Shown in pieces: positions 3,136 through 50,050 of a stretch of 64,000 nt of DNA (position 1 is its first letter; each line of letters opens with the position of its first letter). The DNA is from Escherichia coli. GTDB lineage: Bacteria > Pseudomonadota > Gammaproteobacteria > Enterobacterales > Enterobacteriaceae. Position numbers and translations under genes: made by a program. The notes under the pieces were generated by a model, which saw only the letters and a program-made list of their open reading frames with translations, searched no databases and was not told where the DNA came from. The stretch is from assembly GCF_003018235.1 (NCBI RefSeq), contig NZ_CP027437.1, one strand, 5' to 3'.

Positions 3136-3276
3136 ATGTCGCAAAAATCGCTGATCGCCATCACGCTCTGCGTGACAGCAACCCTCATCATCTGGATATT
3201 GCACGGTTCGCTGTGTGAGATACGGATGAGTTTCTGGGGAGCGGAGTTTGCGGCGTTCTTACAGTGTAAGCAGTAA
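3136..3276 (+). CDS. Hok/Gef-family type I toxin-like small membrane protein (46 aa: MSQKSLIAITLCVTATLIIWILHGSLCEIRMSFWGAEFAAFLQCKQ)
   Basis: Not in the ORF track (under 60 aa). N-terminal transmembrane helix followed by the Hok signature SLCEIR ... E.AAF, closest in my memory to HokA and Hok of plasmid R1; AAAGGAG Shine-Dalgarno 7 nt upstream. Confidence 0.6.
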   Translation: MSQKSLIAITLCVTATLIIWILHGSLCEIRMSFWGAEFAAFLQCKQ

Positions 3277-7153: not shown

Positions 7154-7215
7154 CCTAAAGAATCAAGACGATCCGGTACGCGTGATTTTCTTTTCACATT
7201 AATCTGGTCAATAAC

Positions 7216-7243
7216 CTTGAATAATTGAGGGATGACCTCATTT
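7216..7243 (+). promoter_or_regulatory. Sigma32 heat-shock promoter of clpB (-35 CTTGAA, -10 CCTCATTT)
   Basis: Motif match to the sigma32 consensus, about 40 nt upstream of the clpB start. Confidence 0.6.
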
Positions 7244-7282
7244 AATCTCCAGTAGCAACTTTGATCCGTTATGGGAGGAGTT

Positions 7283-9856
7283 ATGCGTCTGGATCGTCTT
7301 ACTAATAAATTCCAGCTTGCTCTTGCCGATGCCCAATCACTTGCACTCGGGCACGACAACCAATTCATCGAACCACTTCATTTAATGAGCGCCCTGCTGA
7401 ATCAGGAAGGGGGTTCGGTTAGTCCTTTATTAACATCCGCTGGCATAAATGCTGGCCAGTTGCGCACAGATATCAATCAGGCATTAAATCGTTTACCGCA
7501 GGTTGAAGGTACTGGTGGTGATGTCCAGCCATCACAGGATCTGGTGCGCGTTCTTAATCTTTGCGACAAGCTGGCGCAAAAACGTGGTGATAACTTTATC
7601 TCGTCAGAACTGTTCGTTCTGGCGGCACTTGAGTCTCGCGGCACGCTGGCCGACATCCTGAAAGCAGCAGGGGCGACCACCGCCAACATTACTCAAGCGA
7701 TTGAACAAATGCGTGGAGGTGAAAGCGTGAACGATCAAGGTGCTGAAGACCAACGTCAGGCTTTGAAAAAATATACCATCGACCTTACCGAACGAGCCGA
7801 ACAGGGCAAACTCGATCCGGTGATTGGTCGTGATGAAGAAATTCGCCGTACCATTCAGGTGCTGCAACGTCGTACTAAAAATAACCCAGTACTGATTGGT
7901 GAACCCGGCGTCGGTAAAACTGCCATCGTTGAAGGTCTGGCGCAGCGTATTATCAACGGCGAAGTGCCGGAAGGGTTGAAAGGCCGCCGCGTACTGGCGC
8001 TGGATATGGGCGCGCTGGTGGCTGGGGCGAAATATCGCGGTGAGTTTGAAGAACGTTTAAAAGGCGTGCTTAACGATCTTGCCAAACAGGAAGGCAACGT
8101 CATCCTGTTTATCGACGAATTACATACCATGGTCGGCGCGGGTAAAGCCGATGGCGCAATGGACGCCGGAAACATGCTGAAACCGGCGCTGGCGCGTGGT
8201 GAATTGCACTGCGTAGGTGCCACGACGCTTGACGAATATCGCCAGTACATCGAAAAAGATGCTGCGCTGGAACGTCGTTTCCAGAAAGTGTTTGTTGCCG
8301 AGCCTTCTGTTGAAGATACCATTGCGATTCTGCGTGGCCTGAAAGAACGTTACGAATTGCACCACCATGTGCAAATTACTGACCCGGCAATTGTTGCAGC
8401 GGCGACGTTGTCTCATCGCTACATTGCTGACCGTCAGCTGCCGGATAAAGCCATCGACCTGATCGATGAAGCAGCATCCAGCATTCGTATGCAGATCGAC
8501 TCAAAACCAGAAGAACTCGACCGACTCGATCGTCGTATCATCCAGCTTAAACTGGAACAACAGGCGTTAATGAAAGAGTCTGATGAAGCCAGTAAAAAAC
8601 GCCTGGATATGCTCAACGAAGAACTGAGCGACAAAGAACGTCAGTACTCCGAGTTAGAAGAAGAGTGGAAAGCAGAGAAAGCATCGCTTTCTGGTACACA
8701 GACCATTAAAGCGGAACTGGAACAGGCGAAAATCGCTATTGAACAGGCTCGCCGTGTGGGTGACCTGGCGCGGATGTCTGAACTGCAATACGGCAAAATC
8801 CCGGAACTGGAAAAGCAACTGGAAGCCGCAACGCAGCTCGAAGGCAAAACTATGCGTCTGTTGCGTAATAAAGTGACCGATGCCGAAATTGCTGAAGTGC
8901 TGGCGCGTTGGACGGGGATTCCGGTTTCTCGCATGATGGAAAGCGAGCGCGAAAAACTGCTGCGTATGGAGCAAGAGCTGCACCATCGCGTTATTGGTCA
9001 GAACGAAGCGGTTGATGCGGTATCTAACGCTATTCGTCGTAGCCGTGCGGGGCTGGCGGATCCAAATCGCCCGATTGGTTCATTCCTGTTCCTCGGCCCA
9101 ACGGGTGTGGGGAAAACTGAGCTTTGTAAGGCGCTGGCGAACTTTATGTTTGATAGCGACGAGGCGATGGTCCGTATCGATATGTCCGAGTTTATGGAGA
9201 AACACTCGGTGTCTCGTCTGGTTGGTGCGCCTCCGGGATATGTCGGTTATGAAGAAGGTGGCTACCTGACCGAAGCGGTGCGTCGTCGTCCGTATTCCGT
9301 CATCCTGCTGGATGAAGTGGAAAAAGCGCATCCGGATGTCTTCAACATTCTGTTGCAGGTACTGGATGATGGGCGTCTGACTGACGGGCAGGGGAGAACG
9401 GTCGACTTCCGTAATACGGTTGTCATTATGACCTCTAACCTCGGTTCCGATTTGATTCAGGAACGCTTCGGTGAACTGGATTATGCGCACATGAAAGAGC
9501 TGGTGCTCGGTGTGGTAAGCCATAACTTCCGTCCGGAATTCATTAACCGTATCGATGAAGTGGTGGTCTTCCATCCGCTGGGTGAACAGCACATTGCGTC
9601 GATTGCGCAGATTCAGTTGAAACGTCTGTACAAACGTCTGGAAGAACGTGGTTATGAAATCCACATTTCTGACGAGGCGCTGAAACTGCTGAGCGAGAAC
9701 GGTTACGATCCGGTCTATGGTGCACGTCCTCTGAAACGTGCTATCCAGCAGCAGATCGAAAACCCGCTGGCACAGCAAATACTGTCTGGTGAATTGGTTC
9801 CGGGTAAAGTTATTCGCCTGGAAGTTAATGAAGACCGGATTGTCGCCGTCCAGTAA
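7283..9856 (+). CDS. clpB: Disaggregase chaperone ClpB (AAA+); internal GTG at 7727 (codon 149) is the known start of the short ClpB isoform
   Basis: 857 aa from the ATG at 7283 (GGGAGGAG Shine-Dalgarno); the ORF track begins 4 codons earlier at 7271; two Walker A motifs. Confidence 0.95.
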
Positions 9857-10297: not shown

Positions 10298-11839
<1,542 letters not shown>

Positions 11840-11924
11840 CCTTAAAGAACTGTGCTTTGCAGTGCTCACACAGATTGTCTGATGAAAAGTGAAAAGCAAG
11901 GCGTCTTGCGAAGCAGACTGATAC

Positions 11925-12000
11925 GTCCCCTTCGTCTAGAGGCCCAGGACACCGCCCTTTCACGGCGGTAACAGGGGTTCGAATCCCCTAGGGGACGCCA
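11925..12000 (+). tRNA. gltW: tRNA-Glu (UUC) in the 16S-23S spacer
   Basis: GTCCCCTTCGTCTAGAGG ... GGGGACGCCA, 76 nt ending in CCA. Confidence 0.95.
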
Positions 12001-12193
12001 CTTGCTGGTTTGTGAGTGAAAGTCACCTGCCTTAATATCTCAAAACTCATCTTCGGGTGACGTTTGAGATATTTGCTCTTTAAAAATCTGGATCAAGCTG
12101 AAAATTGAAACACTGAACAACGAAAGTTGTTCGTGAGTCTCTCAAATTTTCGCAACACGATGATGAATCGAAAGAAACATCTTCGGGTTGTGA

Positions 12194-15097
<2,904 letters not shown>

Positions 15098-15189
15098 ACA
15101 ACGCCGAAGCTGTTTTGGCGGATGAGAGAAGATTTTCAGCCTGATACAGATTAAATCAGAACGCAGAAGCGGTCTGATGAAACAGAATT

Positions 15190-15309
15190 TGCCTGGCGGC
15201 CTTAGCGCGGTGGTCCCACCTGACCCCATGCCGAACTCAGAAGTGAAACGCCGTAGCGCCGATGGTAGTGTGGGGTCTCCCCATGCGAGAGTAGGGAACT
15301 GCCAGGCAT
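15190..15309 (+). rRNA. rrfG: 5S ribosomal RNA
   Basis: TGCCTGGCGGC ... GCCAGGCAT; 120 nt. Confidence 0.97.
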
Positions 15310-32446: not shown

Positions 32447-33402
32447 TGAAGCAACTTTGGTTTGCCATGTCATTAGTGACAGGTAGCCTGTTATTCTCTG
32501 CTAACGCCTCGGCCACTCCCGCGTCCGGGGCGTTATTACAGCAGATGAACCTGGCCAGTCAGTCACTGAATTACGAGCTGTCATTCATCAGCATCAATAA
32601 ACAGGGTGTTGAGTCTCTGCGTTATCGACATGCACGCCTCGATAACCGTCCTCTTGCACAATTGTTGCAAATGGATGGCCCGCGCCGGGAAGTGGTACAG
32701 CGCGGCAATGAAATCAGCTATTTTGAACCGGGACTTGAACCGTTCACGCTTAATGGCGATTACATTGTTGATTCTCTACCATCGCTCATCTATACCGATT
32801 TCAAACGCCTTTCTCCTTACTACGACTTTATCTCCGTCGGGCGCACGCGTATTGCTGATCGTCTTTGCGAAGTCATTCGTGTGGTTGCCCGAGATGGTAC
32901 ACGCTACAGCTACATCGTGTGGATGGACACCGAATCGAAATTACCGATGCGGGTTGATCTCCTTGATCGCGATGGTGAAACGCTGGAACAATTTCGCGTG
33001 ATTGCTTTTAATGTCAATCAGGATATCAGCAGCAGTATGCAGACGCTGGCGAAGGCAAATTTGCCGCCGTTGCTTTCTGTTCCTGTAGGTGAAAAAGCTA
33101 AATTCAGCTGGACGCCAACCTGGTTGCCACAGGGTTTTAGCGAAGTTTCCAGTAGTCGACGTCCGCTACCGACGATGGACAACATGCCTATCGAATCACG
33201 TCTCTATTCCGACGGATTATTCAGCTTCTCGGTAAACGTTAACCGCGCTACGCCATCGAGCACCGATCAGATGTTGCGCACCGGGCGCAGAACCGTCAGT
33301 ACAAGCGTACGTGATAACGCCGAAATCACCATTGTCGGTGAACTGCCGCCGCAAACGGCGAAACGCATTGCCGAGAATATTAAGTTCGGGGCAACGCAAT
33401 GA
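32446..33402 (+). CDS. rseB: SigmaE regulatory protein RseB (periplasmic)
   Basis: 318 aa; TAATG overlap with rseA. Confidence 0.95.
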   Translation: MKQLWFAMSLVTGSLLFSANASATPASGALLQQMNLASQSLNYELSFISINKQGVESLRYRHARLDNRPLAQLLQMDGPRREVVQRGNEISYFEPGLEPFTLNGDYIVDSLPSLIYTDFKRLSPYYDFISVGRTRIADRLCEVIRVVARDGTRYSYIVWMDTESKLPMRVDLLDRDGETLEQFRVIAFNVNQDISSSMQTLAKANLPPLLSVPVGEKAKFSWTPTWLPQGFSEVSSSRRPLPTMDNMPIESRLYSDGLFSFSVNVNRATPSSTDQMLRTGRRTVSTSVRDNAEITIVGELPPQTAKRIAENIKFGATQ

Positions 33403-33878
33403 TCAAAGAGTGGGCTACCGTCGTCTCCTGGGAAAACGGGCAGGCGCTGGTTAGTTGTGATGTTAAAGCCTCATGCAGCAGCTGCGCTTCACGTGCCGGT
33501 TGCGGTAGCCGCGTGTTGAATAAACTTGGCCCGCAAACCACGCATACCATTGTCGTACCCTGTGATGAGCCGTTAGTGCCGGGGCAAAAAGTAGAATTAG
33601 GAATCGCCGAAGGCAGCCTGCTTAGCTCCGCATTACTGGTTTATATGTCGCCGCTGGTGGGATTATTCCTCATCGCTTCACTATTTCAGCTACTCTTTGC
33701 TTCAGATATTGCAGCATTATGCGGTGCGATTCTCGGTGGCGTTGGTGGATTCCTGATTGCACGTGGCTGCTCTCGAAAGTTTGCTGCCCGGGCAGAATGG
33801 CAACCGATCATCTTAAGCGTGGCATTGCCGCCTGGCCTTGTGCGATTTGAAACATCTTCGGAAGACGCGAGCCAGTGA
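33399..33878 (+). CDS. rseC: RseC (SoxR-reducing system / sigmaE regulatory protein)
   Basis: 159 aa; ATGA overlap with rseB. Confidence 0.9.
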   Translation: MIKEWATVVSWENGQALVSCDVKASCSSCASRAGCGSRVLNKLGPQTTHTIVVPCDEPLVPGQKVELGIAEGSLLSSALLVYMSPLVGLFLIASLFQLLFASDIAALCGAILGGVGGFLIARGCSRKFAARAEWQPIILSVALPPGLVRFETSSEDASQ

Positions 33879-34075
33879 TTTCACTGGCTTTGTTGCATTT
33901 TGCATAACAAATGCGAGGACGTTTCCAGATACCACAATCCATACGGTATGAACATTTCCTCGCCTCAATGTTGTAGTGTAGAATGCGGCGTTTCTATTAA
34001 TACAGACGTTAAGCTCAGAACAGCGACTTCTAAAAGCCTGGTTAACCGGGCATTAAGGCACAATAATCATACTTT

Positions 34076-35875
<1,800 letters not shown>

Positions 35876-36915: not shown

Positions 36916-37107
36916 TTATGAGATAAATCTCCCGTGGCTAACGACATCCCCCGTCGTTGTGTATAGAATATTCCCCCGAAGTTTAAGGTTGGCACCTCCA
37001 GGTTGCCACGGCACACGAAACAGCGTTGGTCCCCATATACCGGTAAACTGAAACTGCAGCGAAGCAGTTAGCAGAACCATGTATATCAGGTCTGTTTCGT
37101 GTGCTGA

Positions 37108-38720
<1,613 letters not shown>

Positions 38721-38731
38721 GAGTAACTCCG

Positions 38732-39460
38732 ATGGAAGGCTGGCAGCGCGCATTTGTCCTGCATAGTCGCCCGTGGAGCGAAACCAGCCTGATGCTGGAC
38801 GTCTTCACGGAGGAATCGGGTCGCGTGCGTCTGGTTGCCAAAGGCGCACGCTCTAAACGCTCTACTCTGAAAGGTGCATTACAGCCTTTCACCCCTCTCT
38901 TGCTACGTTTCGGCGGGCGTGGTGAAGTCAAAACGCTGCGCAGTGCTGAAGCTGTCTCGCTGGCGCTGCCATTAAGCGGTATCACGCTTTACAGCGGTCT
39001 GTACATCAACGAACTTCTCTCCCGCGTACTGGAATACGAGACGCGCTTCTCTGAACTCTTTTTCGATTACTTGCACTGCATTCAGTCTCTTGCAGGTGCC
39101 ACTGGTACGCCAGAACCCGCGCTGCGCCGCTTTGAACTGGCACTGCTCGGGCATCTGGGCTATGGCGTCAATTTTACTCATTGTGCGGGTAGCGGCGAGC
39201 CGGTAGATGACACCATGACGTATCGTTATCGCGAAGAAAAAGGGTTTATCGCAAGCGTCGTTATCGACAATAAAACGTTCACCGGAAGGCAGTTAAAAGC
39301 GTTAAACGCGCGGGAATTTCCTGACGCAGACACACTGCGCGCCGCGAAACGCTTTACCCGCATGGCGCTTAAGCCGTATCTTGGCGGTAAACCATTAAAG
39401 AGCAGGGAACTGTTCCGGCAGTTTATGCCTAAGCGAACGGTGAAAACACATTATGAATGA
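38732..39460 (+). CDS. recO: DNA repair protein RecO
   Basis: 242 aa. Confidence 0.95.
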
Positions 39461-39471
39461 TGAGGATTGTC

Positions 39472-40203
39472 ATGGCTGAATTACTGTTAGGCGTCAACAT
39501 TGACCATATTGCAACGCTGCGTAACGCACGCGGTACTGCTTACCCGGATCCGGTGCAGGCGGCGTTTATTGCTGAGCAGGCGGGAGCGGACGGCATTACC
39601 GTGCATTTACGTGAAGATCGCCGCCACATTACTGACCGTGATGTGCGCATCCTGCGTCAGACGCTGGATACCCGCATGAATCTGGAGATGGCGGTGACCG
39701 AAGAGATGCTGGCGATCGCCGTTGAGACGAAGCCACATTTTTGCTGCCTGGTACCGGAAAAGCGTCAGGAAGTAACAACCGAAGGCGGCCTGGACGTCGC
39801 TGGACAGCGTGACAAAATGCGCGATGCCTGTAAACGTCTGGCGGAGGCCGGGATCCAGGTTTCTCTCTTTATCGACGCCGATGAAGAGCAGATCAAAGCT
39901 GCGGCAGAGGTTGGCGCACCGTTTATCGAGATCCACACCGGTTGCTATGCTGATGCCAAAACTGACGCCGAACAGGCGCAAGAGCTGGCGCGTATCGCCA
40001 AAGCCGCGACCTTTGCCGCTAGTCTCGGTCTGAAAGTTAACGCTGGTCACGGTCTGACCTATCACAACGTGAAAGCCATTGCCGCCATCCCTGAGATGCA
40101 TGAACTGAATATCGGTCATGCCATTATTGGTCGTGCAGTGATGACCGGACTGAAAGATGCGGTGGCAGAAATGAAGCGTTTGATGCTGGAAGCGCGTGGC
40201 TAA
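39472..40203 (+). CDS. pdxJ: Pyridoxine 5'-phosphate synthase
   Basis: 243 aa from [21 protein letters not shown]. Confidence 0.95.
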
Positions 40204-40583
40204 TGGCAATATTAGGTTTAGGTACGGATATTGTGGAGATTGCTCGCATAGAAGCGGTGATCGCCCGATCCGGTGAGCGCCTGGCACGCCGCGTATTAAG
40301 CGATAACGAATGGGCAATCTGGAAAACGCACCACCAGCCGGTGCGTTTTCTGGCGAAGCGTTTTGCTGTGAAAGAAGCGGCGGCAAAAGCGTTTGGCACC
40401 GGGATCCGCAATGGTCTGGCGTTTAATCAATTTGAAGTATTCAATGATGAGCTCGGCAAACCACGGCTACGGCTATGGGGTGAGGCATTAAAACTGGCGG
40501 AAAAGCTCGGCGTTGTAAATATGCATGTAACGCTGGCAGATGAACGCCACTATGCTTGTGCCACGGTAATTATTGAAAGTTAA
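40203..40583 (+). CDS. acpS: Holo-[acyl-carrier-protein] synthase
   Basis: 126 aa; TAATG overlap with pdxJ. Confidence 0.95.
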
Positions 40584-40605
40584 AAAAATACCGTTCTCTT
40601 TATAA

Positions 40606-40680
40606 AGTAAAACCCCCGAACTGGTAAGGAACGGGGGTTTTCACTTTACAACTTTAATTTTGTGCAGCACACGATTCCAA
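40606..40680 (-). ncRNA. ohsC: Putative OhsC antisense sRNA (antitoxin of shoB); extent approximate
   Basis: Known K-12 arrangement (divergent from shoB); minus-strand terminator at 40608..40641 and a candidate -10 CATAAT about 40689..40694; boundaries are inferred. Confidence 0.3.
40608..40641. terminator. Bidirectional hairpin terminator (acpS on +; presumed ohsC on -)
   Basis: CCCCCG / CGGGGG stem flanked by an A-run and a T-run. Confidence 0.7.
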
Positions 40681-41004
40681 CAGAAATGATTATGGATCAA
40701 TTTCGTTATCCTGTACAAGCAACTTGCAATCTCTGACATAAAAAACGCGAGCCTTTACGAAGAAATCGACATTGATAAAAAGATTAACGTGACCGCTTTT
40801 TGATAAGTACATTAAAATCGGTTTCGTTATTGGCAATTTTGCTGTGCTTTACACCATGCCACTGAATTCCCCCATTGAAACGAGTGGTGTCGTCAAAGCT
40901 CTGGTGTGGAGTGCAGCACTCGATTCCAATAACTCGCACGTTCAGTTTTGGGGAGATGTAAGGGCTAATCTGAACGGCTGCATTCCTTGTTTAAGGAAAA
41001 ACGA

Positions 41005-41085
41005 ATGACTGATTGCCGATACCTGATTAAACGGGTCATCAAAATCATCATTGCTGTTTTACAGCTGATCCTTCTGTTCTTATAA
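41005..41085 (+). CDS. shoB: ShoB small toxic membrane peptide (type I toxin), 26 aa: MTDCRYLIKRVIKIIIAVLQLILLFL
   Basis: Direct translation matches ShoB as recalled; not in the ORF track because of its size. Confidence 0.85.
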   Translation: MTDCRYLIKRVIKIIIAVLQLILLFL

Positions 41086-41278
41086 CATAAGGAAACGTAC
41101 TTAAGGCGCGTCAGGTTAACCAGCCAGGCGCGCCTTTAATAATTATAAATAAATGTCTGGGCAGATATTATATAAATTCATTTTGTGAATAATTATGCTA
41201 ATGTCATCAATTAAATAAATATAATGGCGTTAAGGCTTTCCTGTAAAATAATTAATACTCTACTTCCAGAGCAGAATA

Positions 41279-41575
<297 letters not shown>

Positions 41576-41594
41576 TTATACGCGCATTCTTTAC

Positions 41595-42443
41595 TCAGAC
41601 CAGTTTTTTCACCAGCGCTTCACTATGACGAATACGTTCTGGTGCCAGTTCCAGATCCTGCTGAATCAGCGCAATGAACAGCAAATCCGTTAACATTCCC
41701 TGCGCGTGACAAGCAGAGATTGAAGCACTGTTTGTCGCTTGTTCTTCGGCAATGGTATACAGGCAATGAGAAGCGCGCTGTTGCAGGGCATTGGGAGTAA
41801 AGCCGGTAATCGCCAGCACTTTTCCGCCCACTCGCAGCATCTCATCTGCCGCCAGGTTTAACTCGCGTCGTACACCGGTGTAAGAAATGGCTAATAACAG
41901 ATCGTCAGGGGACGACGCCTGTACTGTAGCGAGTAGCGCATGCATATCGCGCACTGCGGCAGCATTGAAGCCAATCTTCATCAGCTTCCAGGCAAAGTTT
42001 TGCGCCACCAGACCCGAAGCGCCAATACCGGTCAGAATTATCCGCCGCGCAGAGCGCAACATTGCCACGCACTCATGCAGCTTCTCTTCACTATTAACGT
42101 TTAGCGTTGCGTACATGGCGGCAGTATTTTCTTTAATCAGTTTTTCGCCGACCAGCCGTAACGGATCATCACCGCGGATTTGGTTATGAATGGGCACGGA
42201 GGGAGATTCCGGCTGGCTTGCCAGCGCTTCACTCAACGCCAACTTAAGTGCCGGAAAACCTTTATAGCCGAGTTTTTGTGCGAACTTCACGACGCTGGAC
42301 TGACTGACTCCGGCTTCGTTGGCCAGTTGCTGAGAGCTTAAATGGCGCGCCGTATCAGGTTGTAGCAGCAGATAATCCGCCAGTTTTTTATCACTCTGGG
42401 CAAGCCCCTGGTAACGCTGACGGATACGAAGTAAGCCGTTCAT
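41595..42443 (-). CDS. yfhH: RpiR/MurR-family transcriptional regulator (HTH plus SIS domain) YfhH
   Basis: 282 aa from the internal Met (MNGLLRIRQRY...). Confidence 0.85.
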   Translation of the reverse strand: MNGLLRIRQRYQGLAQSDKKLADYLLLQPDTARHLSSQQLANEAGVSQSSVVKFAQKLGYKGFPALKLALSEALASQPESPSVPIHNQIRGDDPLRLVGEKLIKENTAAMYATLNVNSEEKLHECVAMLRSARRIILTGIGASGLVAQNFAWKLMKIGFNAAAVRDMHALLATVQASSPDDLLLAISYTGVRRELNLAADEMLRVGGKVLAITGFTPNALQQRASHCLYTIAEEQATNSASISACHAQGMLTDLLFIALIQQDLELAPERIRHSEALVKKLV

Positions 42444-42651
42444 ATCTTTCCTCGCGATGAAATAGTGGCGACAACAGGCAATATGAGACACACGCGCGTG
42501 AATTTTATATTCCATTGCTGCTAATTGCCATGAATTAAAAATTCCAGTTAGCCATGATGTGGTCGATTGTTGCCGGAAAAGTAATGATCTATCTGTTAGG
42601 CTATGTAGTAGCGAAAATTAATCAGGATGTTTCAGTCCAGAGGAGTATGGT

Positions 42652-43287
42652 TTGGCAACTCACGAGCGTCGTGTGGTGTTTTTTGACTTAGATGGAACAT
42701 TGCATCAGCAGGATATGTTCGGCAGTTTTTTGCGTTATTTACTGCGTCGCCAACCGCTGAATGCGTTACTTGTCCTGCCGCTGTTGCCGATCATTGCCAT
42801 TGCGTTATTGATAAAAGGTCGTGCGGCACGCTGGCCGATGAGTCTGCTTCTGTGGGGGTGCACTTTTGGTCACAATGAAGCACGTTTACAGACGTTGCAG
42901 GCCGATTTCGTACGCTGGTTTCGTGACAATGTTACCGCCTTTCCGCTGGTGCAGGAGCGTTTAACCACCTACCTGTTAAGTTCCGATGCTGATATCTGGT
43001 TGATTACCGGCTCTCCGCAGCCGCTGGTTGAAGCGGTTTATTTCGATACGCCCTGGCTGCCGCGGATTAATCTTATCGCCAGTCAGATTCAGCGTGGCTA
43101 TGGTGGTTGGGTATTGACGATGCGTTGTCTGGGACATGAAAAGGTCGCGCAACTGGAGCGTAAAATCGGCACGCCACTGCGGTTGTACAGTGGCTATAGC
43201 GACAGTAATCAGGACAACCCGCTGCTTTATTTCTGTCAGCATCGTTGGCGAGTAACCCCGCGCGGTGAACTCCAGCAACTGGAATAG
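42652..43287 (+). CDS. pgpC: Phosphatidylglycerophosphatase C (HAD-like)
   Basis: 211 aa; N-terminal DLDGTL HAD motif. Confidence 0.9.
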   Translation: MATHERRVVFFDLDGTLHQQDMFGSFLRYLLRRQPLNALLVLPLLPIIAIALLIKGRAARWPMSLLLWGCTFGHNEARLQTLQADFVRWFRDNVTAFPLVQERLTTYLLSSDADIWLITGSPQPLVEAVYFDTPWLPRINLIASQIQRGYGGWVLTMRCLGHEKVAQLERKIGTPLRLYSGYSDSNQDNPLLYFCQHRWRVTPRGELQQLE

Positions 43288-49860: not shown

Positions 49861-50050
49861 AGTGGCTCATTCACCGACTTATGTCAGCCCCTTCGGGACG
49901 TGCTACATAAAATTCGAATGACGCACAACAAGGTGCCTGCCGTCCAACTTCTGATATCAGCGTAGCTATATCAACCATCGGGCGAAACGTCGAGTTAGGC
50001 ACCGCCTTATTCCATAACAAAGCCGGGTAATTCCCGGCTTTGTTGTATCT
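49861..50050 (+). ncRNA. glmY: GlmY small RNA (regulator of glmS via GlmZ/RapZ)
   Basis: Starts AGTGGCTCATTCACCGACTTATGTCAGCCCCTTCGGG as recalled for GlmY; ends at the terminator AAAGCCGGGTAATTCCCGGCTTTGTT. Confidence 0.85.

What the first reader, a model, noticed from the sequence alone, without database searches (positions are those of the whole stretch)
40606..41085. shoB-ohsC type I toxin-antitoxin locus between acpS and yfhL (toxin invisible to the ORF track)
The 26-aa ShoB peptide (MTDCRYLIKRVIKIIIAVLQLILLFL) is encoded at 41005..41085. The divergent antisense partner ohsC is expected upstream on the minus strand; I placed it at about 40606..40680 from a minus-strand terminator and a candidate -10, but its boundaries are uncertain. 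Together with the hok-like gene this gives two type I toxin loci in the window.
Basis: partly seen in the sequence, partly recalled or inferred. Interest (0 to 1): 0.45.

Follow-up and report, generated by a model that had tools for sequence, protein, structure and literature searches.

The report
Known shoB–ohsC toxin–antitoxin locus
The only mildly new point is that this strain carries the minority allele, in which the antitoxin and its target changed together.

Summary
Confirmed, and ordinary. The 26-codon shoB ORF lies at 41005..41085 (+) and is 81/81 nt identical to K-12 shoB. Rfam RF02495 (ohsC_RNA) matches 40604..40681 (-) at 95.4 bits against a threshold of 50. Promoters, the Shine-Dalgarno sequence and both terminators match the published elements.

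The OhsC 5' end (40662-40681) is complementary to the shoB 5' UTR (40911-40930), 75-94 nt upstream of the ATG. The most likely mechanism, by analogy with tisB/IstR-1 and zorO/OrzO, is that OhsC blocks a standby or accessible site on the 5'-processed mRNA and RNase III then cleaves the duplex. This is inferred, not shown.

One addition. The window carries a "B" haplotype, found in about 31% of 5,426 complete E. coli genomes. An 8-nt block differs from K-12 in both the antitoxin and its target. Five pairs are fully compensatory, and one U·U mismatch is fixed. No recombinant and no "repaired" genome was found. A 2024 survey noted the variability but did not check pairing.

Novelty: already known. 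Interest: low.

The parts
40602..40681 (-). ohsC gene, the OhsC antitoxin sRNA of about 78-80 nt. The 5' end is G at 40681. The 3' end lies in the U-rich tail at 40602-40606.
   Evidence: Rfam RF02495 matches 40604..40681 at 95.4 bits. The K-12 b4608 annotation transfers by alignment.
40662..40681 (-). OhsC 5' pairing region, nt 1-20: GUUGGAAUCGUGUGCUGCAC.
   Evidence: The predicted duplex with the shoB 5' UTR is -34.2 kcal/mol, against a shuffled mean of -16.4 (sd 2.2). Covariation is shown.
40609..40641 (.). Bidirectional terminator hairpin (AAAACCCCCG, 13-nt loop, CGGGGGTTTT). It ends acpS on the + strand and OhsC on the - strand.
   Evidence: Read directly from the sequence. OhsC folds at -21.8 kcal/mol. 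It corresponds to the 3' hairpin of the Rfam consensus structure.
40689..40718 (-). ohsC promoter: -10 CATAAT at 40689-40694 and -35 TTGTAC/TGTACA at 40712-40718.
   Evidence: Promoter scan. The hexamers are the same as those reported for ohsC: -10 conserved in 100% of strains, -35 TTGTAC in 33.1% (PMC11264685).
40789..40818 (+). shoB promoter: -35 GTGACC at 40789-40794 and -10 TAAAAT at 40813-40818.
   Evidence: Promoter scan. The hexamers are identical to the published shoB -35 and -10.
40826..41140 (+). Predicted primary shoB mRNA, about 315 nt. The start site is predicted from the -10 and was not mapped here.
   Evidence: The length agrees with the roughly 320-nt full-length transcript reported for K-12 (PMC5668327). 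Predicted fold is -112.2 kcal/mol, z = -6.5.
40826..40856 (+). 5' segment of the shoB mRNA (nt 1-31), predicted to pair with nt 77-108 and so bury the OhsC target in the unprocessed transcript.
   Evidence: Consensus fold of 14 sequences. Opening the target costs 19.8 kcal/mol in the full-length mRNA and about 7.5 after removal of 20-45 nt.
40911..40930 (+). OhsC target in the shoB 5' UTR (GUGCAGCACUCGAUUCCAAU), 75-94 nt upstream of the ATG. It pairs as 9 bp, a U·U mismatch at 40920, 9 bp, and a terminal G·U.
40670..40677 (-). Haplotype-specific 8-nt block in ohsC. The + strand reads CACGATTC here and TGCACCCT in K-12.
   Evidence: Alignment with K-12 and the allele table.
40919..40926 (+). 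Matching haplotype-specific 8-nt block in the shoB target: CTCGATTC here and TGCACCCT in K-12.
40983..40998 (+). Hairpin that sequesters the Shine-Dalgarno sequence: UUCCUU at 40983-40988 pairs with AAGGAA at 40993-40998.
   Evidence: The six pairs are kept in 14 of 14 sequences (13 of 14 at the outermost pair) and are predicted in both the consensus and single-sequence folds. The published RBS is AAGGAA.
41005..41085 (+). shoB coding sequence: a 26-aa hydrophobic toxin plus the stop codon.
   Evidence: In the closest genome the same position is annotated as ShoB, WP_000128776.1.
41103..41136 (+). shoB terminator hairpin, followed by UUUAAU.
   Evidence: Folds and inverted repeat I1.

Best explanation
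The region 40602..41140 is the chromosomal shoB–ohsC type I toxin–antitoxin module of Escherichia coli.

Shown here by sequence:
- an intact 26-codon shoB;
- a divergent OhsC sRNA gene with its own sigma-70-type promoter and a terminator shared with acpS;
- a 20-nt OhsC 5' end complementary to the shoB 5' UTR, 75-94 nt upstream of the start codon.

Taken from the literature on K-12: ShoB overproduction depolarises and kills cells; OhsC relieves this; the roughly 320-nt primary shoB mRNA is translationally inert; a roughly 280-nt 5'-processed form is active; RNase III cuts within the putative duplex.

Inferred mechanism:
1. In the primary transcript, the first ~31 nt pair with the target region, and the Shine-Dalgarno sequence sits in a 6-bp hairpin.
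2. Removal of about 35-40 nt from the 5' end frees the upstream region. It can then serve as a ribosome standby or loading site.
3. OhsC binds that same region through its 5' end. This blocks ribosome loading and creates an RNase III substrate, so no toxin is made while OhsC is present.

This strain carries the minority 'B' recognition allele. It differs from K-12 by a concerted 8-nt change in both partners and keeps one central U·U mismatch.
For: Identity:
- Rfam ohsC_RNA at 95.4 bits, threshold 50.
- shoB 81/81 nt identical to K-12 b4687.
- Synteny acpS–ohsC–shoB–yfhL as in K-12, and in 5,336 of 5,426 E. coli genomes at 80% coverage or more.
- Promoter hexamers and RBS equal the published ones.

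Pairing:
- Cognate duplex -34.2 kcal/mol, against shuffles of -16.4 ± 2.2.
- The two 19-mers are the only matches in 64 kb, with 0.01 expected.
- Across 5 distinct haplotypes the 20 intermolecular pairs are 99% paired. Five pairs changed on both sides and three changed in a wobble-compatible way. None of 500 shuffles reached this, and slid registers gave 22-48% paired.
- A sixth, E. albertii-like haplotype from metagenomes also keeps full pairing.
- Non-cognate A/B combinations reach only -21.5 and -23.0 kcal/mol.

Structure:
- Alifold of 14 sequences, and the single-sequence fold (z = -6.5), both bury the target and the Shine-Dalgarno sequence.
- The cost of opening the target falls from 17-20 to 6-8 kcal/mol after 5' truncation.

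Literature:
- 19-nt complementarity through the OhsC 5' end (PMC3919570).
- 320-nt and 280-nt forms, toxicity and depolarisation (PMC5668327).
- RNase III site in the duplex (PMC6212723).
- Standby model proposed for this class of loci (PMC4147584).
Against: No expression or toxicity data exist for this strain, and no tool here can supply them.

The shoB transcription start (40826) and the processing site are predicted, not mapped. The primary paper (Fozo et al. 2008) is not in the held library.

The B-allele duplex has a central U·U mismatch (9 + 9 bp) and is 7 kcal/mol weaker than the K-12 duplex. Sufficiency is argued only by analogy with the Zor/Orz rule, where 17 nt with one internal mismatch suffices.

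The standby mechanism has never been demonstrated for shoB.

Most pairs in the mRNA fold are invariant and so say nothing about structure. Only 2 of 100 show compensatory change.

All five compensatory intermolecular changes belong to one haplotype and may stem from a single event.
Confidence: 0.88

Rival explanations
1. The module is real, but OhsC acts mainly by another route than standby-site competition. One possibility is that it only tags the mRNA for RNase III cleavage and decay. Another is that it interferes with translation of the upstream ORF 40856..41008, whose TGA overlaps the shoB ATG as ATGA. That would be a mok/hok-like translational coupling.
For: An RNase III cleavage site was detected in the shoB/OhsC duplex region in K-12 (PMC6212723). 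A 50-codon ORF (54 from GTG) stays open in all 14 sequences compared, ends in ATGA on the shoB start, and contains the OhsC target.
Against: For the upstream ORF:
- No Shine-Dalgarno sequence precedes its ATG.
- The ATG is ATA in strain E69.
- All substitutions but one are non-synonymous.
- Processing to the active ~280-nt form would remove the ATG, which sits at mRNA nt 31-33.
- OhsC binds about 55 nt downstream of that ATG, so it could not block initiation there.

RNase III cleavage and standby blocking are not mutually exclusive. In tisB and zorO both occur.
Confidence: 0.25
2. In the B haplotype carried by this window, the central U·U mismatch makes OhsC a weak or ineffective antitoxin. 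shoB would then be kept silent mostly by its own 5' UTR structure, and the locus would be drifting towards an uncoupled state.
For: The duplex is interrupted (9 + 9 bp) and 7.2 kcal/mol weaker than the K-12 pair. Whether natural variants keep enough pairing has explicitly not been validated for shoB–ohsC (PMC11264685). The 5' UTR alone is predicted to bury both the target and the Shine-Dalgarno sequence.
Against: - The B pair is present in 1,692-1,694 of 5,426 genomes with all promoters, the RBS and the ORF intact.
- Five of the block positions changed to complementary bases in both genes. That is not expected if pairing were dispensable.
- -34.2 kcal/mol is 8 sd beyond the shuffles.
- In the related Zor/Orz system, 17 nt with one internal mismatch is sufficient.
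- The mismatch is never 'repaired' in any genome. Each U is paired inside its own RNA's local hairpin, so a repair would weaken that hairpin. This suggests the mismatch is tolerated or selected, not decay.
Confidence: 0.1
3. The stretch 40604..40681 is only the acpS terminator plus spacer, and no independent minus-strand sRNA is made. The shoB ORF would then be a chance small ORF in a non-coding RNA (RyfB).
For: The strongest part of the Rfam match is the terminator hairpin shared with acpS. ShoB has no Pfam or NCBIfam model.
Against: - The match covers all 77 model positions, including the 5' part.
- A -10/-35 pair sits at the right distance and is conserved in 100% and about 100% of strains.
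- The 5' part co-varies with the shoB UTR.
- The shoB reading frame is conserved across Escherichia species, with mostly synonymous or conservative I/V/L changes.
- Published work shows that both RNAs and the toxicity exist in K-12.
Confidence: 0.02

Closest known systems
shoB–ohsC (ryfB–ryfC) of E. coli K-12 MG1655, b4687/b4608
   Same: Same genomic site (acpS–yfhL). ShoB is identical in protein and coding DNA. OhsC has the same architecture: 5' pairing region, A/U spacer and shared terminator. Promoter hexamers, RBS and transcript lengths are the same.
   Different: An 8-nt block of the recognition sequence differs in both partners: CACGATTC/CTCGATTC here and TGCACCCT/TGCACCCT in K-12. This leaves one U·U mismatch where K-12 has 19 perfect pairs. 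The ohsC -35 is TTGTAC, not TTGTAA. The 164 bp from the ohsC 5' part to the shoB start site are about 21% divergent, and the shoB terminator stem is a different variant.
tisB/istR-1 (E. coli)
   Same: The sRNA gene is divergent and non-overlapping. About 20 nt of 5'-end complementarity target a site roughly 100 nt upstream of a structurally sequestered RBS. The primary mRNA is inactive and a 5'-processed form is active. RNase III cleaves the duplex.
   Different: The toxins share no sequence relationship. tisB is LexA/SOS-controlled, whereas shoB/ohsC have reported CpxR boxes. The standby mechanism is demonstrated for tisB and only inferred for shoB.
zorO/orzO (E. coli O157:H7)
   Same: Same divergent layout, a long 5' UTR of about 174-180 nt, an 18-nt 5'-end seed, activation by 5' processing, and a recognition region that varies between copies and strains. 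The OhsC body can carry a foreign seed and still work, as the OrzO–OhsC chimera shows.
   Different: It is a different toxin family and a multi-copy locus, so seed variation there prevents cross-talk between paralogues. shoB–ohsC is single-copy, so the two alleles never meet in one cell.
hok/sok
   Same: A type I module with a small membrane toxin, an mRNA that must be processed to become translatable, and an antisense RNA.
   Different: Sok overlaps its target in cis and acts on the mok leader ORF. OhsC is trans-like, with limited complementarity, and the upstream ORF here shows no sign of being functional.

Membership tests
ShoB/OhsC type I toxin–antitoxin | A 26-aa hydrophobic ShoB ORF with its own Shine-Dalgarno sequence | tested here: met
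   41005..41085 encodes MTDCRYLIKRVIKIIIAVLQLILLFL, with AAGGAA 6 nt upstream. It is 81/81 nt identical to K-12 b4687.
ShoB/OhsC type I toxin–antitoxin | An OhsC sRNA that matches the curated covariance model | tested here: met
   RF02495 at 95.4 bits against a gathering score of 50, model positions 1-77 of 77, 40604..40681 (-).
ShoB/OhsC type I toxin–antitoxin | Divergent, non-overlapping genes in the acpS–yfhL intergenic region | tested here: met
   The ORF map, the K-12 annotation and the nearest genome's annotation agree. The ohsC 5' end (40681) and the predicted shoB start (40826) are 144 bp apart, back to back.
ShoB/OhsC type I toxin–antitoxin | About 19 nt of complementarity between the OhsC 5' end and the shoB 5' UTR | tested here: met
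   The complementarity is 19 nt with one internal U·U mismatch plus a terminal G·U, at -34.2 kcal/mol. Covariation across haplotypes supports it. K-12 has 19 perfect pairs (literature).
ShoB/OhsC type I toxin–antitoxin | Published promoter elements: shoB GTGACC/TAAAAT and ohsC TTGTAA-or-TTGTAC/CATAAT | tested here: met
   The promoter scan was compared with Table 2 of PMC11264685.
ShoB/OhsC type I toxin–antitoxin | ShoB overproduction is toxic and depolarising, and OhsC relieves it | not testable with these tools
   Known for K-12 only (PMC5668327). ShoB here is identical in sequence, but OhsC and its target are the B allele.
ShoB/OhsC type I toxin–antitoxin | Transcripts of about 60-80 nt (OhsC) and about 320/280 nt (shoB) are made | not testable with these tools
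   Predicted lengths of 78-80 nt and 315 nt fit the published sizes. No expression data exist for this strain.
Standby-site-controlled type I toxins (tisB/istR-1, zorO/orzO class) | The RBS is sequestered in a stable local structure | tested here: met
   In silico only. The UUCCUU/AAGGAA 6-bp hairpin is predicted in the consensus and single-sequence folds and is kept in 14 of 14 sequences (13 of 14 at the outermost pair).
Standby-site-controlled type I toxins (tisB/istR-1, zorO/orzO class) | The antitoxin target lies far upstream of the RBS and is exposed only after 5' processing | tested here: inconclusive
   The target lies 62-81 nt upstream of the Shine-Dalgarno sequence. The predicted opening cost drops from 17-20 to 6-8 kcal/mol on 5' truncation, which fits the reported inactive 320-nt and active 280-nt forms. 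The processing site is not mapped, and the helix is supported mainly by invariant pairs.
Standby-site-controlled type I toxins (tisB/istR-1, zorO/orzO class) | 30S subunits bind the upstream single-stranded site and the antitoxin competes with them | not testable with these tools
   Never shown for shoB. The reviews state it as a possibility.

The most novel reading that the evidence does not exclude
E. coli maintains two co-adapted, probably mutually non-cross-reacting recognition alleles of a single-copy type I toxin–antitoxin pair.

Frequencies of the ohsC allele in 5,426 genomes:
- K-12-type 'A', perfect 19-nt pairing: about 57%.
- A G·U variant of A: 9%.
- 'B' type, seen in this window: 31%.

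Features of B:
- It differs by a concerted 8-nt block swap in both the OhsC seed and the shoB target. Five pairs are compensatory and a sixth goes from A-U to G-C.
- It carries a fixed U·U mismatch that is never repaired. Repair would weaken each RNA's own hairpin.
- It sits in a 164-bp segment about 21% divergent from every A-type sequence, including those of other Escherichia species. Those A-types differ from each other by only 3-12%.
- The immediately flanking segments have been reshuffled by recombination, yet no A/B recombinant exists.

This would mean that selection keeps the seed and its target matched, and possibly tunes repression strength. It would also supply the natural compensatory-mutation evidence for OhsC–shoB pairing that the 2024 survey said was still missing.
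Probability: 0.5. Interest if true: 0.3.

Novelty: already known. Interest (0 to 1): 0.13.

Why it matters
shoB–ohsC has been annotated in K-12 since 2008 and is present in about 98% of E. coli.

The modest added value is the allele analysis. The natural A, A', B and E. albertii-like haplotypes amount to a ready-made compensatory-mutation series that supports the proposed 20-nt OhsC–shoB duplex. The B allele, with its fixed central mismatch, is an obvious test case for how much pairing this class of antitoxin needs. That question was stated as open in PMC11264685.

Tried and rejected
- The simple terminator scan found no terminator in 40400-41400. This is because of its loop limit of 8 nt or fewer and its T-run rule. 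Both hairpins are evident by folding.
- Pfam and NCBIfam have no model that hits the 26-aa ShoB. Identity rests on DNA alignment to the annotated gene.
- The primary paper (Fozo 2008, PMC2597788) is not held, and a search for RyfB/RyfC returned nothing. Experimental ends come from secondary sources.
- RNAduplex with the whole OhsC gave long, physically meaningless pairings. It was redone with nt 1-22 only.
- Artificial chimeras, B-ohsC + A-shoB and the reverse, were used as queries to look for natural recombinants. The best full-length hits were 94.7% and 95.0%, which are the pure haplotypes (H103 was checked).
- I searched for B alleles with the mismatch repaired at either site and found none. 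The unmodified controls hit 1,694 and 1,692 genomes.
- I considered that the upstream ORF 40856..41008 (ATGA overlap with shoB) is a mok-like leader and rejected it as unsupported. It has no Shine-Dalgarno sequence, its ATG is lost in one lineage, its substitutions are almost all non-synonymous, and its start lies in the part removed by processing.
- The E. albertii and E. whittamii loci from the genome scan were cut off before ohsC. An E. albertii-like pair was recovered from a metagenome contig (L021).

Full report
**What is in the sequence.** The window between acpS (40203..40583, +) and yfhL (minus strand, about 41279..41539) holds a 26-codon ORF at 41005..41085. It encodes MTDCRYLIKRVIKIIIAVLQLILLFL and is preceded by AAGGAA at 40993-40998.

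An Rfam scan of 39000-43000 at permissive threshold, and of the whole window at gathering threshold, gives one relevant hit. This is RF02495 ohsC_RNA at 40604..40681 on the minus strand, 95.4 bits against a gathering score of 50, covering model positions 1-77 of 77.

The K-12 record annotates shoB (b4687, 2700117..2700197, -), ohsC (b4608, 2700520..2700598, +) and acpS in the same order. Aligned to the window, the K-12 ohsC span corresponds to 40602..40681, and the shoB coding sequence is identical at all 81 positions.

The locus is present in essentially all E. coli. In total 5,425 of 5,426 complete genomes match, 5,336 at 80% coverage or more, always on the chromosome and in single copy.

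**Regulatory anatomy.**
- On the minus strand, TGTACA and CATAAT (40717..40689) put a start site at about 40681.
- On the plus strand, GTGACC (40789) and TAAAAT (ending at 40818) predict a shoB start near 40826.
- These are exactly the hexamers listed for the locus in a survey of 2,212 E. coli genomes: shoB -35 GTGACC 99.9%, -10 TAAAAT 99.6%; ohsC -10 CATAAT 100%, -35 TTGTAA 66.8% or TTGTAC 33.1%; RBS AAGGAA 100% (PMC11264685). The window has the minority TTGTAC.
- OhsC ends in the hairpin 40609-40641, which also terminates acpS on the other strand.
- shoB ends in a hairpin at 41103-41136.
- The predicted primary shoB mRNA is about 315 nt and OhsC is 78-80 nt. These fit the published ~320-nt transcript and the annotated 79-nt K-12 OhsC.

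**The pairing.** OhsC nt 1-20 (from 40681 down to 40662) are complementary to shoB mRNA nt 86-105 (40911-40930), which lie 75-94 nt upstream of the ATG.
- The two 19-mers are the only matches to the motif in 64 kb, with 0.01 expected by chance (also family D1).
- The predicted duplex is -34.2 kcal/mol, against -16.4 ± 2.2 for shuffled 5' ends.
- In K-12 the same positions give 19 uninterrupted Watson-Crick pairs at -41.4 kcal/mol. This is the published '19 nt of complementarity' through the OhsC 5' end (PMC3919570).

**Mechanism (inferred).** Published work on K-12 shows four things. ShoB overproduction depolarises and kills. OhsC abolishes this. A ~320-nt primary and a ~280-nt 5'-processed shoB mRNA exist, and only the latter is translated (PMC5668327). 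RNase III cuts in the putative duplex region (PMC6212723).

My folds add a consistent picture.
- In a consensus fold of 14 shoB mRNAs from E. coli and four other Escherichia lineages, nt 1-8 and 15-31 pair with nt 77-108, so the target is buried.
- The single-sequence fold has z = -6.5.
- Opening the target costs 17-20 kcal/mol in the full-length RNA but 6-8 kcal/mol once 20-45 nt are removed from the 5' end.

The layout is that of tisB/IstR-1 and zorO/OrzO. There the freed upstream region is a ribosome standby site, and the antitoxin competes with the ribosome and triggers RNase III cleavage. I take this as the most likely mechanism for shoB as well, but it has not been demonstrated for this system. 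Most helix pairs are invariant and therefore uninformative.

**A mok-like alternative.** A 50-codon upstream ORF at 40856..41008 ends in ATGA on the shoB start. It is open in all 14 sequences. However, it lacks a Shine-Dalgarno sequence, loses its ATG in one lineage, shows almost only non-synonymous changes, and would be decapitated by the activating processing event. I consider it unsupported.

**What differs from K-12.** Over 40400-41400 the window is only 92.1% identical to K-12. The differences are concentrated. An 8-nt block inside the pairing region differs in both genes. In ohsC it is CACGATTC against TGCACCCT (40670-40677). In the shoB target it is CTCGATTC against TGCACCCT (40919-40926). 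The two genes thus changed to almost the same new sequence, which preserves complementarity except for one U·U opposition (40671/40920).

I call the K-12 type A and the window type B. Several lines of evidence describe the two types.
- With the 321-nt core as query, E. coli genomes split bimodally: 1,736 at 95% or more, 3,659 at 80-90%, and only 25 in between.
- Queries of 55 nt, designed so that megablast can seed only across the diagnostic position, count the alleles. The B ohsC site is in 1,692 genomes and the B shoB site in 1,694. The K-12 ohsC site is in 3,087. An A' variant, in which one A-U becomes G·U, is in 508.
- Artificial A/B chimeras find no natural counterpart; the best full-length hits are 94.7% and 95.0%.
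- No genome carries a B allele with the mismatch repaired at either site.
- An independent sample of 73 metagenome contigs gives 32 A/A, 26 B/B, 9 A'/A, 2 of an E69-like type with two G·U pairs, and 1 E. albertii-like type with one G·U. There are again no mixed pairs.
- Counted formally on five distinct haplotypes, the 20 intermolecular pairs are 99% paired. Five pairs changed on both sides and three changed in a wobble-compatible way. None of 500 shuffles reached this, and slid registers gave 22-48% pairing.
- Non-cognate combinations are predicted at only -21.5 and -23.0 kcal/mol.

**Limits on the allele evidence.** All five compensatory changes belong to the single B haplotype and may derive from one event. 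The two sites are only 250 bp apart, so the absence of recombinants is weak evidence on its own.

Two observations still make the pattern more than trivial linkage.
- The segments immediately outside the pair are reshuffled relative to A/B. These are the ohsC 3' part (40604-40661) and the shoB 3' UTR.
- The 164 bp from the OhsC seed to the shoB start site are about 21% divergent between B and every A-type sequence, including other Escherichia species. Those A-types differ from each other by 3-12%.

**The fixed U·U mismatch.** It may have a structural reason. Each U is paired within its own RNA's local hairpin, and repairing it weakens that hairpin. For OhsC the change is -2.4 to -0.4 kcal/mol, and for the shoB target it is -11.4 to -7.0. 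This is a hypothesis only.

**Comparison with the literature and verdict.** The locus is a textbook type I toxin–antitoxin pair that is annotated in K-12 and surveyed across E. coli. Its variability in the pairing region has been noticed, but the authors stated that pairing potential 'cannot yet be said' to be validated for shoB–ohsC (PMC11264685). The co-variation documented here addresses that point in silico, and it may or may not already be implicit in earlier figures I could not read.

Novelty is 'already known' and interest is low.

The ORF at 3136..3276 passes Pfam HOK_GEF and is annotated as a Hok/Gef family protein next to an ogr/Delta-like gene in an identical genome.

Noticed in passing
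window 3136..3276 (+): A 46-aa Hok/Gef-family ORF (MSQKSLIAITLCVTATLIIWILHGSLCEIRMSFWGAEFAAFLQCKQ). It scores 27.8 bits against Pfam HOK_GEF, cut-off 22. A 100%-identical genome annotates it as a Hok/Gef family protein beside an ogr/Delta-like zinc-finger gene, which suggests a P2-like prophage end. Only 84 of 5,426 genomes hold 80% or more of this 800-bp stretch. No Sok-type RNA reached the Rfam threshold.
   Followed up: partly
window 40856..41008 (+) (GTG-extended from 40844): An upstream ORF of 50 codons lies inside the shoB 5' UTR. Its TGA overlaps the shoB ATG as ATGA, and it contains the OhsC target. It is open in all 14 Escherichia sequences compared. However, it has no Shine-Dalgarno sequence, its ATG is lost in strain E69, and its substitutions are almost all non-synonymous. 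It is reminiscent of tisA.
   Followed up: partly
window 40662..40825: The OhsC seed plus the divergent promoter region is about 21% divergent between the B haplotype (this window) and all A-type sequences, including other Escherichia species. Those A-types differ from each other by only 3-12%. The origin of the B segment, whether rapid evolution or import, is unknown.
   Followed up: partly
window 41103..41136 (+): The shoB terminator stem occurs in two forms that differ by compensatory changes: GGCGCG…CGCGCC here and GGTGCG…CGCACC in K-12. The distribution of the two forms does not follow the A/B haplotypes. The window shares its form with an A' strain and with E. albertii, which implies recombination just downstream of shoB.
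   Followed up: partly
L011 (NZ_CP144930.1) and L045 (metagenome contig QZLQ01000519.1): These are natural antitoxin-only variants. In L011 an IS5-like ISKpn26 insertion has replaced shoB. In L045 a clean deletion joins shoB mRNA nt ~34 to the terminator. ohsC is intact in both. L028 shows a frameshifted shoB, but on a contig of 1.7× coverage.
   Followed up: partly
window 40826..40833 with 40926..40933: In the predicted long-range helix between the shoB 5' end and the target region, one pair (alignment columns 8/101) is G-C in B, A-U in K-12 and G·U elsewhere. The last base of the variable block therefore also fits an intramolecular partner.
   Followed up: no
window 7164..7302, 10298..15307, 33363..34194, 36978..37192, 49861..50008: Other Rfam hits above threshold are RyfD, a complete rrn operon (16S, tRNA, StyR-44 spacer element, 23S, 5S), AsrC (antisense to rseC), the rncO leader and GlmY. 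This is the expected E. coli context.
   Followed up: no
window 40400..41400: Only 9 of 5,426 complete E. coli genomes are 99% or more identical to this 1-kb stretch. The combination in the window of a B core, this ohsC 3' part and this shoB terminator form is a rare mosaic.
   Followed up: no
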